This document shows, piece after piece, positions 2,816-35,207 of a stretch of 64,000 nt of DNA; the first letter of the stretch is position 1; each line of letters opens with the position of its first letter. This DNA is from the human T2T-CHM13v2.0 reference genome, Homo sapiens, in the NCBI RefSeq assembly GCF_009914755.1, contig NC_060933.1; one strand, written 5' to 3'. The notes beneath the pieces were generated by a model. It ran no database searches, had not been told where the DNA came from, and was given only the letters and a program-made list of their open reading frames with translations. The position numbers and the translations under genes are program-made.

Positions 2816-5219
<2,404 letters not shown>

Positions 5220-5506
5220 TCACAGTAAATAAAGCAGAGTCAGCAGAAGCCTTGAATAACCAAGGATAGAGAAATAGTATATACAAAAAGTTACCATCGC
5301 AATATAAGGAAATAAAAGCTCCTATTTCTCTTATTTCCTTACAAGTTCTCTAAGAAAGAGACCTTGTCTTATTTCTTTACAAGGAAATAAGACAAATAGA
5401 AGCTGGATCATGTGAATGTTGGTTTATCAAGATGGCTACTTCTGAGGAACCACTACTAGAGTTCCTGTTTGTGCGTTATTAGACAGTGATTTAGGATGTT
5501 ATCATT

Positions 5507-5919
5507 TGCTACAGTTTGAATGTTTGCCCCTCTGAACTTGTGTTGAACCTTAATCCCTAATGTGGCAGTATTGAAAGGTGGGGCCTTTAAGAGGTGATTA
5601 GGTCAAAAGACTGCCGTCAAGAATGAATTAATTCATTAATGGACTAATGGATCAATGCATTTTCATGGGAGTGGGACTGGTAGACTTTCAGAAGAAATAA
5701 GAGAGACCTGAGTTAACACACTCAGCCCATTTGCCATATGATGTCCTGTACCACCTCAGAACCCTGCAGAGTCCCCACTAGCAAGAAGGCTCTCACCAGA
5801 TGAGCCCCCTTGACCTTGAACTCCCAAGTCTCCACAATTGTAAGGCATAAATGTTGTTTCTTTATAAATTACCCAGTTTCAGGTATTCTGTTATAAGCAA
5901 CAGAAAGCAAACTAGGATG
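5507..5919 (+). mobile_element. MST-family solo LTR (MSTD/MSTC-like)
   Basis: Starts TGCTACAGTTTGAATGTT; AAATTACCCAGT motif; 5-bp TSD TCATT (5502-5506, 5920-5924). Confidence 0.85.
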
Positions 5920-6429
5920 TCATTTCGTAAAGACAAATGATGGGGCTACAGTGGGGATTAACTCTTTCTTGGAGACTTTTTACACTTACAGTAAACTCAA
6001 TGATCTGAGGCAAGTTGAATTTGTCTGTTTCTCACAATTGGGAGACATTGCCAAAACCACGTATTCTGGCTTATTCCTACTTCACAGTCAGCAGAAAATA
6101 AAATTTTCTAGTGGAGTTTTGCTGAATGACATTGAAATAGTAAGTAAAAATAAATTTGAAATGTTTTAGTTTATTCATTACAGAACAACTTTAAAATAGT
6201 AGATAAAAATGAGTTGGGCATTTAAGCTTCATTTAAGAAAAGCTCAATATGAAGCAGGTAATTACTATTCCCTTTCTTTCAATCTCATCAATTATGTAAA
6301 AAGAAGCATCTTTTTAAAATTATAAATTTTAAGTAAAAAGATATCTCAATATATATCTATGAAATATTATATTATATATGATATGCACCTAAATTTTAAT
6401 ATAAATACAATAAATATGGTAAAATCAGA

Positions 6430-6860
6430 TTACTCTCAATTTGTTGGCACCAGTTGAATTTGGTACAATTATTTTGTGTTGTAATACACCTGTATTTATC
6501 AAGAATAAAAAATGCTTTGTCATTTGGCTCAAAAAATTTACATTTGCGAATTTACAGTAAATTAAAATTCAAATGAAGAAAAGAATAATCTCTCCCTTTC
6601 TCTCTAAGTGTCTGGTAATAAGGAAATGGCTAAACAAATTATAGTACACCCATTTAGACTATATTATGTAAATGGTGAGGCAATAATTATAGGAGATGGG
6701 AAATGTAAGTTATTAGATGATAAAAAAAAAAGGCAGAGTACTACCTTGCATTTTTTCTGTGATTATGACAATAAATATCAAGTGTGCAAGTGGGACAAGT
6801 GTAGAAACGAAAAAACAGATAGTTGTGTTAGTAGAATGGTAGTTTTCGGAGGTAGTTTTC
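6430..6860 (+). mobile_element. Degraded L1ME-like 3' fragment
   Basis: AAGTGTCT...GGAAATGGCTAAACAAATTATAGTACAC resembles the L1M ORF2 end; boundaries approximate. Confidence 0.35.
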
Positions 6861-7544
6861 CTCTTTGCTTAATTTTAAGTTCACCCCGTTATTTTTTCAA
6901 TTTAAAAGGAAAAATTAGGTAAGAAGTCTTGATTTGCCTGTAAATACATATTATAGATAACATAAAAACTGGAGAAGAAAAGTCAAAAGGTATAAGAGGG
7001 GACAAACTCCAGTATCAGCTTCTTCTGAAACAGCAGTTTCTGAAATAGAACAGGTGTTTGTTTGTTTGTCTTTGGTGCAAAAGATCCAAACAGGGAACAA
7101 TACCTTTGGGAAAATACTTGTGCAAACACATTGCTGTTGTTTTGTTACCATGGATAAAATAAAAGAAAATGTCCTTGGAAAGAATAACAATATATTTCTG
7201 AATTATGCCTTTTCAACTGTGCTTTAAGTTTCCCTGAAAAGAACATTACAAACAACGTTGCCAAACAAAAGCTTGAGAGGATGCACAGCACCCTCAGGAC
7301 TTGTGAACTAATGGCCCATTCTAGGAAACTAAACATTTTGGTTTCAAATTAGACTATTTCCAGCAGGGAAGGCTTGTAGGAGATGCAAAAGCCTGCCCTA
7401 AGTACTGACATGCCAGGGTCTTTTAGGTTGGGAGAGATGTCCTTTACACCAAGGCAGTAATTTGCCTTGAGGAAAAACTGAAAACACTTGTGTGATTGAG
7501 TTGGGAAGCTACATGGGAACCACTAAAAAACTTTGAAAGGTTTC

Positions 7545-30258: not shown

Positions 30259-30790
30259 AACGCGCACTTCCAAATAGTTAACAGGCAGCAGGGTCTCATT
30301 TGCTCAGCATATGTTTTCTCAGCCTTTGTATTAACAAGGTTCCTAGGAGTATTCAAAACATTTTTGTTCAAAGATAGGCTCCAAAGGATTTAAATTGTCA
30401 TCTGAGGTGAGAAAATCTGCCCAATCTAAGGCTGTCCTTGACAGGCCCTCCTCAAGTTGGAATTAGTTCTACATGGATTCTGCCACGTTTAATCGCATAA
30501 TTCAACCTTTCTGAGGTTATCCGCAGAATTTTGTTCAACTTTCAACTTCCACAGATCAGAAATATAAAGACCACCTGTAGCACATATAATCTAAATTTGT
30601 CTGCAAGTGGAGAATTTTTAACTATCAAATTGAAAGGGAATTAAATGGCTAGACAGAACTTATGCAATTTATTTTATTCCTATCCGCAGGTTCACATCTG
30701 CTGTCTCCTGAATGAACTCACTTTTATATTCTAAGTAATTACACCTCTGCTCTTTTTAACACAACTATAGTAGTCCTTAGTGTTGATAGA

Positions 30791-30793
<3 letters not shown>

Positions 30794-30842
<49 letters not shown>

Positions 30843-31068
30843 TATAGAGTATATACTCTATATAGAGTACTATATATAAGAGTACATATACTCTTAGAGT
30901 ATATGTGTATATAGAGAGTATATATAGAGTATATAGAGTATATACTCTATATAGTGTACATATATAGTATATATATAGAGTATATATATCTATATAGAGA
31001 GCATATATAGATGTATATTTCTATAGGTATCTAGAGAAAGCAAATATATATATATATATATATATATA
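30794..31068. repeat. (TA)23 plus degenerate TATAGAG/TATA repeat with palindromes
   Basis: Read directly. Confidence 0.95.
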
Positions 31069-31290: not shown

Positions 31291-31422
31291 TCTTGGAAAC
31301 TGCACTCTAAAGAATCTTTATATCGTAGCCCATGTCTCCTTAGGAAACAGATAATGGCAATGACACTTCCAACAAAGTATTCTTAATAGTAATGTGACAA
31401 GACTGGTTTAGGAAGTAGTTGG

Positions 31423-31577
31423 ACAGAAAAAAAAGACAAAGGGAAGGAAAGAGGGAGAAAGGAAGGAAGAAAAAAATGGAAAAGAAGGAAGGAAGGGATG
31501 AAGGAAGGAAGGGAGGGAGGAAGGAAGGAAGGGAGGGAGGAAGGAAGGAAGAGAGGGAAGGAGGAAGGAAGGAGGAA
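31423..31577. repeat. (GGAA/GGGA)n purine-rich repeat
   Basis: Read directly. Confidence 0.95.
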
Positions 31578-31641
31578 GCTTTGTATATGTCAGGGACATT
31601 TTTATATATAGTACCATATTAAATATTGGCTTATTTGACAA

Positions 31642-32720
31642 TGTGATGTATTAGCTAGTATGCCGGTTAAGCCTCCTACTGTGAAAAGGAAAATGAATCC
31701 TAGGGCTCAGAATATTTCGGGAGATTGTTTGATGTAATCACTGTGCAGTGTAGCTAATCAGCTAAAGACCTTGAAGCCAGTAGGGATAGCAATAATTATG
31801 GTAGCAGAGGTGAATTATGCCCGTGTGTCTATGTCTGTTCCTACCGTAAATATATGGTGAGCCCATACGATAAATCCTAAGAAACCAATTGATATCATGG
31901 CTCATAGTATGCCCATATCCAAATGATTCCTGTTTTCCAGAAAATACGTTACGATGTGGGAGATTATCCTGAAGCCTGGTAGGATAAGGATATGGACTTC
32001 AGGGTGACCAAAGAATCAGAATAAATGTTGGTACAAGATAGGGTCACACCCGCCAGCGGGGTCAAAAAAAGTAGTGTTGAGGTTACCGTCAGTTAACAGT
32101 ATAGTAATGCCGGCGGCTGGGTCTGGGAGGGAAAGAGTAGAAGGACTGCCATAATGGACTGATCAGACGAAAAGGGGTGTGTGATACTGAGATAAGGCTG
32201 GGGGTTTTATGTTAATAATTGTGGTAATGAAGTTAATGGCCCCTAAAATAGACGAAACACCTGCCAAGTGGAGGGAGAAGATGGTCAGATACACAGAGGC
32301 TCCTAAATGTGCTAGGTTTCCTGCTAAAGGGGGATAAAGTGTTCAGCCGGTTCCAGCGCAGGCTTCTACTATTGAGGATGCAAGTAGGAGTAGAAAAGAT
32401 TGGGGGAGAAGTCAGAAGCTCATATTATTTATCTCGGGGAATGCCATATTGGGTGCACCAATTACCAGAGGGACTAGCCAGTTGCCGAAACCCCCAATCA
32501 TGATTGGTATTACCATAAAAAAGATTATAACGGATGTGAGGGCGGTAACAATAACATTGTAGATCTGATCATCTCCTAGCAGAGTTCCCGGCTGGCCTAA
32601 TTCTGCTCGAATTAGAAGGCTTAAGGCGGTGCCTGCTATCCCTGCCTATGCGGCAAATAGCAGGTATAGTGTTCCGGTATCTTTGTGGTTAGTTGAAAAC
32701 AATCAACGATTGATGAACAT
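31642..32720 (-). pseudogene. COI pseudogene (5' ~1080 nt)
   Basis: ATG at 32720; MFINRWFSTNHKD-like start with frameshift; HLFWFFGHPEV region near 32000-32030; ends near GGLTG. Confidence 0.95.
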
Positions 32721-32734
32721 AAGTGGGGAAAAAA

Positions 32735-32798
32735 GGTAAAATGGCTGAGTAAGCATTAGACTATAAATCTAAAGACAGAGGTCAAGGCCTTTTTACCA
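32735..32798 (+). pseudogene. mt-tRNA-Tyr pseudogene
   Basis: GGTAAAATGGCTGAG...TTTTTACCA; anticodon GTA mutated to ATA. Confidence 0.9.
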
Positions 32799-32864
32799 GC
32801 CCTGAGGTGATTTCTCATGTTGAATTGCAAATTCAAAGGAGCATCTTCAGTCCTGCAGGAGCTT
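32798..32864 (+). pseudogene. mt-tRNA-Cys pseudogene
   Basis: TTGAATTGCAAATTCAA anticodon arm (GCA). Confidence 0.9.
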
Positions 32865-32896
32865 CTCCGGCCTTTCTCCCCCAACGGTGGGAGAAG
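32862..32896. other. Mitochondrial light-strand origin (OL) stem-loop relic
   Basis: CTTCTCCGGCC...GGTGGGAGAAG between Cys and Asn; stem imperfect. Confidence 0.85.
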
Positions 32897-32969
32897 GAGA
32901 TTGAAGCCAGTTGATGAGGGTGTTTAGCTGTTAACTGCATTTTCGTGGGTTTGAATTCCATCAATCTAG
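32897..32969 (+). pseudogene. mt-tRNA-Asn pseudogene
   Basis: AGATTGAAGCCAGTTGAT...TAGCTGTTAACT (GTT)...CAATCTAG. Confidence 0.9.
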
Positions 32970-32970
32970 C

Positions 32971-33039
32971 AAGGGCTTAGCTTAATTAAAGTGGTTGATT
33001 TGTGTTCAATTGATGCAGAACAGAGTCTTGCAGTCCTTA
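32971..33039 (+). pseudogene. mt-tRNA-Ala pseudogene
   Basis: AAGGGCTTAGCTTAATTAAAG...GCAGTCCTTA; anticodon TGC mutated to TGT. Confidence 0.9.
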
Positions 33040-33048
33040 GATCTGTTA

Positions 33049-33116
33049 TAGAAATTAAGTGTAATTTACTTACTAAGGGCGTTGAAGGCCCTTCGTCTTA
33101 TTTAACCTAAATTTCT
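33049..33116 (-). pseudogene. mt-tRNA-Trp pseudogene
   Basis: Reverse: AGAAATTTAGGTTAAAT...GCCTTCAA (TCA)...TTAATTTCT. Confidence 0.9.
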
Positions 33117-34053
33117 AAGTTACAGTTAGTATTAATGGAGAGATGGGTAAGAGGATGTCAGAAGAGATGACAAGTTGGGGGAAGAGTACTATGGGTTTTG
33201 TATTTTCGAATTGTCATTTTATTTTCATATTATTAGTTGTGGGGAATAGTGTCACTGAGATGGAATAAATTAGGTTTATGTAAAAGTACAGGTTGAGTAG
33301 GGTTATGGTAGCTATAATGGTTGGGGTAATAAGGCTGTTGCTTTTTGTCAATTCTTGGATGATGATTCATTTAGGCAGGAACTCTGTTAATGGAGGTAAA
33401 CCTCCTAGGGATAGTAAAATTAGTGGAATTATAGGTAGCAACCATGTTAATTTGTTTCAGGTGTAAGATAGTGACAGGCTTGTGGTGCTTACACTCAGGT
33501 TGAGTGTAAGTAAAATTATTTACTTTAAGATAAAGTAAATAATCAGGTTTAGAATGGTAATGTTTGGATTATAGATTAGTACTGCTATTATTCAACTTAT
33601 GTGAGTGATTGAGGAGTAAGCTAGGAATTTACGCAGATGTATTTGGTTACGTCCTCCTCAACCGCCCACTATAATGGATAGGATTGTGGTAGATAAGAGA
33701 ATGTTCGTGTTTGTTGATGGGAAAATTTGAAACATAATCAAGATAGAGGCTAGTTTTTGTCATGTGAGGAGAAGTATGCCAGACATTAGAGAGGTTCCTT
33801 GGGTTACCTCTGGGACTCAGAAGTGAAAGGGGGCTATTCCTAGTTTTATTACTATGGCCATTAGTATTAAGGATGAAAATTGATGAATAGTGTTTATTAT
33901 TGTTCATTGTCTGGAGGACAGGTTATTGGAAAGGATACCTATCATGAGAATTATAGATGTGGTTGCTTCTGTAAGGAAATATTTGGTGGCTGCTTCTGTA
34001 GAGCAGGGATTTTTTTTTTTTTTATTAAGATCGGGGTAAGGGCTAGTACGTTT
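33117..34053 (-). pseudogene. ND2 pseudogene (lacks first ~35 codons)
   Basis: [10 protein letters not shown] near 33975-34003, APFHFWVPEV near 33803-33835, LSLGGLPPL near 33388-33415. Confidence 0.95.
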
Positions 34054-35207
34054 GACAAATATTGGCTTATTTGAACTCAAGTAAAATATTCCCTCCTCTA
34101 ATATTCAGCTGCCATCCTTGGGATGACTTAACTAATTGTTCAACAGGCTTGCCCTGTTAGGCTGTGACTATCTAGCCAAAAAAAATCTTATCAAAAAAAA
34201 AAAAATGTTTAGTTCTTGCTGGGAGAACACAGTCTTTATGACTATGCCAAGGGCAGTGACCTGGTATTACTTTTTGCAGAATGTTAATTAAGATAGCCCA
34301 TGGATACAATAAAAAAAATTCATACAATTTACAGTCATTGTAGACATGACTTAAAAGTTCATTTCTCTAAGTACATGTTTCTTTGTAAGAGTATAACTCT
34401 AAAATAATATTTCTACTGTATATTGGACATAGGAGTATGATATGAATTAGTGTAACTCATGATGAATTAACAGCCCAGGGAAATTTTCACTTCAAGCTTC
34501 CCCTGATAAGCATCTAAGCTTTGTAGGTAGAGACAAAACAATTTTTCATGAACTGAACGTTATGATGAATTTCTTTTAACTTAGCTTTTATACCTGTGTA
34601 ATTATTCTACCATTTTAACACACCTAAGGTTAAAGATCTGTTTGCAGGACCTGAGACAATGTTAGAGGACATAAACTTACAATGAGTCCAACTAAATGGG
34701 CTTTGTGATGTTTGTAATACTTAAAGGGGAATACAATACAAAAAAATTTTAAAAACCATTTTCTATTAAAATATAAATGTAATAGCTTTGTGAGGATTAT
34801 ACTTATGATCAGGGTTAGGTCTGAGCAAACTTTCGATGTGATTTTCTAGTGTACTCTCTTCCATTCTTTTGGTTTACCTTTTTTCAGATTTCTCCTATAT
34901 CCTTTAGTTAATCTCTCTCACTACCAAAAGATGACAGGTTTTTTATGCTGTTCATAGGTGACCGGGAGTTTTTTACTTCTGTGCCCCCCCATAGGAGACA
35001 TTGTCTCAGGCTCTGAAACTTCAGCTTTCCCTCATCCCCAGAATCTTTTACTGGTCTCAGGAAACTGGTAATTTAATTTGAAGAAAGGTTTACTCCTTTT
35101 AGATAATGTTTATATCTTAACATTTGTCTTTAACTCTGATTAATAGAACTTCAGATGTTGTAGCAAATTGTTAGAGTCTTGCTTTGAATGCATTACTGTG
35201 GTGCCTA

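What the first reader, a model, noticed from the sequence alone, without database searches (positions are those of the whole stretch)
31621..34074. NUMT flanked by a perfect 18-bp direct repeat at an L1-endonuclease-like site
Seen: AAATATTGGCTTATTTGA at 31621-31638 and 34057-34074 brackets the mitochondrial segment exactly. The left copy is preceded by TT, giving TT|AAAT (L1 endonuclease consensus TT|AAAA). TTTGACAA also occurs at both junctions (31634-31641, 34051-34058). Established: NUMTs usually insert by end joining without long TSDs, while 7-20-bp TSDs are typical of L1-mediated insertion. There is no poly-A at the right junction and the tRNAs and OL are unprocessed. Inference: mtDNA was captured at an L1-endonuclease staggered break, or an unprocessed light-strand (or nuclear NUMT) transcript was reverse transcribed; the orientation is compatible with the latter.
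Basis: partly seen in the sequence, partly recalled or inferred. Interest (0 to 1): 0.7.

Follow-up and report, generated by a model that had tools for sequence, protein, structure and literature searches.

The report
Mitochondrial DNA patch in staggered break
A 2.4-kb piece of old mitochondrial DNA in human chromosome 9 sits between two identical 18-letter copies, likely because it patched a staggered chromosome break (possibly one cut by a LINE-1 enzyme); this is an unusually long example of a known repair scar, not a new mechanism.

Summary
A perfect 18-bp repeat (31621-31638, 34057-34074) flanks a catalogued, fixed NUMT (numt_865, chrM 4573-6990). The flanks are unique, so this is no segmental duplication. 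The left junction has a likely 2-nt microhomology; the right has a 3-nt non-mitochondrial filler. There is no poly(A), no priming complementarity and no RNA-processing mark. Target duplications at NUMTs are in print (17 of 71 events, 1-11 nt), so only the length stands out. In my survey, 3 of 103 other human NUMTs have 17-, 21- and 59-bp flanking repeats (null: 4 of 10,506 pairings). None of the three starts with a TT|AAAA-like site, and one is a four-fragment mosaic that one RNA cannot explain. Best reading: mtDNA was captured by end joining at a staggered break and the overhangs were filled in (about 0.72). The nick site (bottom strand ATTT/AA; 3% background) is a recorded L1 endonuclease variant, so L1 made the break at slightly better than even odds. 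Reverse transcription of an RNA is unsupported (about 0.12). A pre-existing tandem 18+C+18 would also explain every base (about 0.06); only an outgroup empty site can exclude it.

The parts
31621..31638 (+). left copy of the 18-bp direct repeat (likely target-site duplication)
31619..31624 (+). TT|AAAT, bottom strand 5'-ATTT/AA-3': L1-endonuclease-like nick site, 1 mismatch from TT|AAAA
   Evidence: variant recorded in PMC4859970; background 3%
31637..31642 (+). GACAAT: likely start of the mitochondrial sequence; GA is shared with the end of the left repeat (2-nt microhomology) and is followed by a 5-nt deletion
   Evidence: 4 of 14 homologous NUMTs read GACAAT 5 nt outward of the anchor; inferred
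31643..34053 (-). NUMT core, numt_865 = chrM 4573-6990, fixed
31643..32720 (-). COX1 pseudogene fragment (MTCO1P51), broken by stops and indels
   Evidence: hub annotation
32735..33039 (+). light-strand tRNA cluster and OL remnant: Rfam tRNA hits 32735-32798 and 32971-33039 (above cut-off) and 32897-32969 (E 0.13); unprocessed and collinear. Names Tyr, Cys, OL, Asn, Ala are from recalled mt gene order
   Evidence: the OL hairpin folds no better than shuffles, z -1.4
33124..34053 (-). ND2 pseudogene fragment (MTND2P9), 5' end missing
   Evidence: hub annotation
34010..34023 (+). T14 tract: expansion of an internal ND2 A-run; 30 nt inside the junction and wrongly placed for a poly(A) tail
   Evidence: homologues have shorter runs; L004 is also expanded
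34054..34056 (+). GAC filler, non-mitochondrial; with its neighbours it repeats the left-junction 8-mer TTTGACAA
34057..34074 (+). right copy of the 18-bp direct repeat

Best explanation
This is an old 2.4-kb mitochondrial DNA fragment lying between two identical 18-bp copies, likely inserted by end joining into a staggered chromosome break whose overhangs were filled in. Inferred steps: (1) Two nicks 18 nt apart opened the site in a germ-line cell, roughly 25-40 million years ago. The first nick lies at ATTT/AA, so L1 ORF2p endonuclease is the likeliest nicker (about 55%), but other long staggers do the same. (2) The left end joined the mtDNA through a 2-nt GA microhomology. (3) The right end gained 3 nt (GAC), either untemplated or copied from the left junction, and was joined. 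(4) Both overhangs were made double-stranded, which duplicated the 18-mer. (5) The insert then decayed neutrally. Shown directly: the repeat, the junction bases, the unique flanks, collinearity and the neutral decay pattern.
For: Junctions with microhomology and a short filler are the usual NUMT repair marks: microhomology at 51.9% and short insertions at 20.5% of breakpoints (PMC9630118). Target duplication by gap-filling of cohesive breaks is the published reading of 17 of 71 primate NUMTs (PMC2567098 section 8). Fill-in at complementary 3' overhangs makes tandem duplications in cells (PMC8355091 abstract). 3 of 103 other NUMTs carry 15-bp or longer flanking repeats. One is a four-piece, mixed-orientation mosaic, one sits at the centre of a long palindrome, and none has the L1 start motif, so DNA capture alone yields such scars. 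No RNA marks. Primary insertion: changes shared with the nearest NUMT are mitochondrial-like (31 synonymous, 17 not), while private ones are neutral (11 and 25), with no shared coding gap. Flanks are unique. For the L1 nick: 1 mismatch against a 3% background, a recorded site, and a length within the 10-20 bp of mobile-element TSDs (PMC12350158).
Against: No empty site was seen, so 'target duplication' is inferred. 18 nt exceeds the 11-nt maximum of PMC2567098. Both copies staying perfect has a probability of only 0.14-0.33 at 3-5.3% divergence per copy. The filler repeats the left junction, which a pre-existing tandem explains with no filler at all. A templated filler is only weakly supported (4 of 64 possible 3-mers do as well). 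The L1 motif with an L1-like length also fits reverse transcription. The motif was part of why the locus was picked, which inflates it. The age rests on a recalled neutral rate.
Confidence: 0.72

Rival explanations
1. L1 ORF2p nicked the site and reverse-transcribed an unprocessed, tailless light-strand mitochondrial RNA (target-primed reverse transcription in trans), adding GAC at the start.
For: Recorded L1 site and L1-like TSD length. The motif orientation makes the + strand (antisense to ND2/COX1) the RNA sense, with a 2-nt microhomology at the 5' junction. Tailless L1 retrocopies exist (PMC5322556), and mt retrocopies have been proposed (PMC11727581).
Against: No poly(A). Tailless copies need the target to match the RNA beyond the end: here the contiguous match is 1 nt, and 7 of 12 is chance level (about 21% of positions). 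Both ends lie inside genes. tRNA position 9 matches the homologues in 4 of 4 light-strand tRNAs (modification there is recalled knowledge, low power). The three other long-repeat NUMTs lack the motif.
Confidence: 0.12
2. The site already held a tandem 18-mer + C + 18-mer. The mtDNA entered at its middle using GACAA (left) and TTT (right) microhomologies, so the true duplication is only the 8-mer TTTGACAA, or nothing.
For: It accounts for every junction base with no filler and predicts the shared 8-mer exactly.
Against: Such near-perfect tandems (unit 15-25 nt, not simple sequence) are rare: 0 in the window, 3 in 136,636 nt scanned. Long flanking repeats occur at about 3% of NUMTs. The C would have to be a separate mutation that happens to extend the microhomology.
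Confidence: 0.06
3. The insert is a copy (DNA or transcript) of another nuclear NUMT.
For: It groups with L012, 1.8 Mb away on the same chromosome (support 92/97). Only 40 of 138 candidates were scored.
Against: L012 is only 90% identical, neither insert contains the other, shared changes are mostly synonymous with no shared coding gap, and no nuclear flank came along.
Confidence: 0.04
4. The donor was a circular mt fragment (DNA or RNA) closed at TTT|GAC and copied slightly more than once around, giving the 8-mer at both ends.
For: The right end reads on into the bases that start the left end.
Against: It needs entry within 5 nt of the circle junction of a 2.4-kb circle. The 8-mer match itself has a chance of about 4 in 64.
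Confidence: 0.02

Closest known systems
NUMTs with target sequence duplication (Hazkani-Covo and Covo 2008, PMC2567098)
   Same: mtDNA captured in a cohesive break, chromosomal sequence duplicated on both sides, short additions and microhomology at the junctions
   Different: Published duplications are 1-11 nt in human- and chimpanzee-specific NUMTs, checked against empty sites. This one is 18 nt, much older, unchecked against an empty site, and starts at an L1-like site.
Class 1 and class 2 templated sequence insertions (Onozawa and Aplan, PMC5110952)
   Same: TSD and near-TTTT/A site as in class 1; mt donor, microhomology and filler as in class 2
   Different: Lacks the poly(A) and polyadenylation signal of class 1; has the TSD that class 2 lacks. 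A hybrid of features.
Tailless retropseudogenes (Noll et al. 2015, PMC5322556)
   Same: 8-35-nt TSD, AT-rich target, no poly(A)
   Different: No complementarity between target and source past the 3' end; no mitochondrial sources in that paper's main text (0 hits).
retroSeeker 'mitochondrial retrotransposons' (PMC11727581)
   Same: mt sequence between TSDs, proposed L1 involvement
   Different: Those require poly(A) of 5 nt or more next to the 3' TSD; this one has none. Their three named examples are on chr4, chr11 and chrX.
Repair-mediated duplications with TSD plus filler (Pace et al. 2009, PMC2671141)
   Same: poly(A)-less captured DNA with TSD of 4-21 nt, filler and microhomology (their Table 1)
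   Different: Their donors are nuclear; here the donor is mitochondrial.

Membership tests
NUMT (primary insertion) | collinear homology to mtDNA in a nuclear chromosome | tested here: met
   catalogued as numt_865
NUMT (primary insertion) | not a duplicate of another nuclear copy | tested here: met
   nearest 90%, shared changes mitochondrial-like, unique flanks; 40 of 138 candidates scored
NUMT with target sequence duplication | direct repeat abutting both junctions | tested here: met
NUMT with target sequence duplication | single copy at the empty orthologous site | not testable with these tools
   no primate relatives held; flanks have no paralogue
NUMT with target sequence duplication | end-joining marks (microhomology, additions of 5 nt or fewer) | tested here: met
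   3-nt filler shown; 2-nt microhomology inferred
Canonical L1 TPRT product / class 1 TSIP / retroSeeker retrocopy | TSD of about 7-20 nt | tested here: met
   18 nt
Canonical L1 TPRT product / class 1 TSIP / retroSeeker retrocopy | L1 endonuclease site at the TSD start | tested here: met
   ATTT/AA, 1 mismatch, recorded variant
Canonical L1 TPRT product / class 1 TSIP / retroSeeker retrocopy | poly(A) tail next to the 3' TSD | tested here: not met
   the T14 run is internal and of the wrong polarity
Canonical L1 TPRT product / class 1 TSIP / retroSeeker retrocopy | marks of a processed RNA (transcript ends, tRNA excision, CCA, misreads at modified bases) | tested here: not met
   ends inside ND2 and COX1, intact tRNA cluster, position 9 unchanged in 4 of 4 tRNAs
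Tailless retropseudogene | target matches the source RNA past the 3' end (internal priming) | tested here: not met
   1 nt contiguous at the junction; 7 of 12 is chance level
Polymerase-theta templated insertion | filler copied from nearby sequence with flanking microhomology | tested here: inconclusive
   8-nt match to the left junction; 4 of 64 fillers do as well within 20-30 nt, 6 of 64 within 50 nt
Segmental duplication | flanks duplicated elsewhere or beyond the 18-mer | tested here: not met

The most novel reading that the evidence does not exclude
L1 ORF2p both cut this site and reverse-transcribed an unprocessed, tailless antisense (light-strand) mitochondrial polycistronic RNA of 2.4 kb, making this NUMT a retrocopy from a route not yet shown.
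Probability: 0.1. Interest if true: 0.7.

Novelty: new member of a known kind. Interest (0 to 1): 0.33.

Why it matters
NUMT junctions are fossils of natural germ-line breaks. The published set put the longest overhang at 11 nt. This locus and three others found in passing (17, 21, 59 bp; 3 of 103 surveyed) suggest that a few percent of human NUMTs record much longer staggers, from more than one source: a possible L1 nick here, a palindrome centre at chr8:76.63 Mb, a mosaic at chr7:118.58 Mb. If the L1 nick is right, it is a concrete case of an abortive retrotransposon cut healed with mtDNA. It also warns that a TSD next to mt sequence is not by itself evidence of retrotransposition. The locus has no known function.

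Tried and rejected
In-genome stand-in for the empty site: the immediate flanks have no paralogue or old repeat spanning the junction. No mtDNA reference was available: the genome has 24 contigs, and a guessed place on C1 for a young NUMT held none; per Supplementary Data 2 of PMC13179385 that insertion is absent from this assembly. Junctions were therefore read against other NUMTs. ARAGORN found 0 tRNAs; Rfam found 2 above cut-off. T14 as a poly(A) tail: rejected (internal, wrong side). Three substitutions turning ATT into GAC: rejected as improbable beside a perfect repeat. 'Left junction formed first', from the templated filler: kept only as a possibility (4 of 64). A 7-of-12 resemblance between the TSD and the mt continuation: chance. 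An in-window Alu TSD control returned one element and was not used. Literature: no paper names MTND2P9 or MTCO1P51. Searches showed no description of this repeat. The retroSeeker human tables were too large to read, and the primate presence tables of PMC13179385 (Data 8-9) lie beyond the stored cut, so both could bear on novelty and age. Earlier scan findings were not available.

Full report
Observation. The 18-mer occurs exactly twice in the window, at 31621-31638 and 34057-34074, with no further copy at up to 3 mismatches. Between them lies a reverse-oriented ND2-tRNA-COX1 segment. It is catalogued as numt_865, chr9:92,721,643-92,724,053 = chrM 4573-6990, fixed (PMC13179385 Supplementary Data 3, row seen). 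The flanks match only themselves, simple repeats or a distant old repeat, so the repeat is not part of a larger duplication.

Junctions. No mtDNA was held, so I read the ends against other NUMTs of the genome. Right: homology stops at 34053. Eleven of 13 homologues continue ATT and none GAC, so 34054-34056 is a 3-nt filler. Left: homologues carry 5 more bases before the anchor at 31643, and 4 of 14 read GACAAT just outside them; the other 10 differ at 1-2 positions. The likeliest parse is that mt sequence starts at 31637, overlaps the repeat by GA, and lost 5 nt between two GT steps. The alternative is a 4-nt filler. The 8-mer TTTGACAA at both junctions could mean the filler was copied from the left junction, but 4 of 64 possible fillers give a match as long within 20-30 nt, so this is weak.

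Origin and age. On a 1.2-kb tree of 16 rows (loci covering over 90% of that stretch; 14 other hits left out), the insert has an end branch of 0.053. Its nearest row is L012 at 90%. Coding changes shared with L012 are 31 synonymous to 17 non-synonymous with no shared gap; changes private to the window are 11 to 25, as expected for neutral nuclear decay. It is 77% identical over 435 nt to L091, a NUMT I take to be young from its recalled likeness to human mtDNA. I infer a primary insertion about 25-40 million years old (rate recalled; PMC2671141 passages place a NUMT burst at 30-42 Mya). Two copies of an 18-mer stay identical over that span with probability 0.14-0.33: lucky, but not implausible.

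How unusual is the repeat? PMC2567098 (passages and section 8) found target duplications of 1-11 nt in 17 of 71 NUMT integrations and read them as filled-in cohesive breaks. I scanned 103 other reference NUMT loci taken from 187 consecutive rows of the published table (chr7, 8, 9, X). Neighbouring fragments were merged by my judgement, and 16 further loci of those rows were not fetched. A repeat of 15 nt or more with at most 1 mismatch, within 20 nt of both ends, was found in 3 of 103, against 4 of 10,506 mismatched pairings. They are a perfect 17-mer around a four-fragment, mixed-orientation mosaic (chr7:118.58 Mb), a 21-mer at the centre of a long palindrome (chr8:76.63 Mb), and a 59-mer around a 124-bp NUMT (chr8:13.62 Mb). 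A fourth, 12-14 nt, lies in an inverted structure. All three start 3 mismatches from TT|AAAA; the reverse orientation gives 3 and 4 mismatches for the first two and was not readable for the third. None was checked against an empty site, and later deletions hide old duplications, so 3% is a rough figure.

L1 involvement. The site reads 5'-ATTT/AA-3' on the bottom strand, one mismatch from consensus; 3.0% of window positions do as well in either orientation. ATTT/AA is listed for disease-causing L1 insertions with 14-16-nt TSDs (PMC4859970 table passages), and most mobile-element TSDs are 10-20 bp (PMC12350158 passages). That favours an L1 nick. Against it, the three comparators lack the motif and the locus was picked partly for it. 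I put an L1 nick at about 55% within the capture model.

RNA or DNA. There is no poly(A), which both class 1 TSIPs (PMC5110952 passages) and retroSeeker calls (PMC11727581 passages) require. Tailless retrocopies need target-RNA complementarity (PMC5322556 passages); here it is 1 nt at the junction in 12 of 13 homologues, and the 7-of-12 resemblance is reached at about 21% of random positions. The ends fall inside genes, the tRNA cluster is intact, and position 9 of the four light-strand tRNAs equals the homologues (low power). Microhomology and short additions are normal at NUMT junctions (PMC9630118 passages). Fill-in of complementary 3' overhangs by CST and Pol alpha-primase gives duplications in cells (PMC8355091 abstract). 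Poly(A)-less captured DNA with 4-21-nt TSD plus filler is in print for nuclear donors (PMC2671141 Table 1). DNA capture is therefore the best reading (0.72), and reverse transcription stays at about 0.12.

A rival the 8-mer raises. A site that already read 18-mer + C + 18-mer, entered at its middle through GACAA and TTT microhomologies, explains every base without filler.

Novelty. No held paper names the two pseudogenes, and searches showed no account of this repeat. The retroSeeker human tables and the primate tables of PMC13179385 could not be read. Passages of 10.1101/2022.12.02.518938, PMC5059674 and PMC11393654, section 11 of PMC13179385, and a term search of 10.1101/2025.02.02.635956 added nothing on NUMT duplications. 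Verdict: real, a long member of a known kind, of modest interest. The longer tail of flanking repeats among NUMTs is the part worth a genome-wide count.

Noticed in passing
L156:154-170 and 1314-1330 (G000:C7:118,578,713-118,579,889): Four-fragment, mixed-orientation mosaic NUMT flanked by a perfect 17-bp direct repeat with no TT|AAAA-like start; a TTTT/GA site lies 1 nt beyond the right copy on the bottom strand. Its first fragment ends 14 nt from this NUMT's ND2 end and has the same A-run expanded.
   Followed up: partly
L175:41-61 and 455-475 (G000:C8:76,631,312-76,631,824): 393-bp 16S-region NUMT inserted at the centre of a long near-perfect palindrome, with a 21-bp duplication (1 mismatch); looks like a cruciform cut healed with mtDNA.
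   Followed up: partly
L158:7-65 and 187-245 (G000:C8:13,619,865-13,620,109): 124-bp NUMT between two identical 59-bp copies, far longer than any NUMT target duplication I saw in print.
   Followed up: partly
L089 (G000:C23:86,280,417-86,280,625): Short NUMT between inverted pieces of one repeat (L1 3' UTR-like, by recall) with a 12-14-bp direct repeat: an inversion junction patched with mtDNA.
   Followed up: no
L012 (G000:C9:90.90 Mb) and window 32406-34053: The nearest relative of this NUMT lies 1.8 Mb away on the same chromosome and shares mitochondrial-type derived changes: two insertions from closely related mtDNAs, possibly close in time.
   Followed up: partly
window 30786-31068 and 31419-31580: (TA)n-rich palindromic low-complexity stretch and a GAAG/GGAG polypurine tract within 850 nt and 40 nt of the left junction; both could make the region break-prone.
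   Followed up: no
L015 (G000:C17:19.55 Mb): In another NUMT the same ND2 A-run is the entry point of an Alu-like insertion.
   Followed up: no
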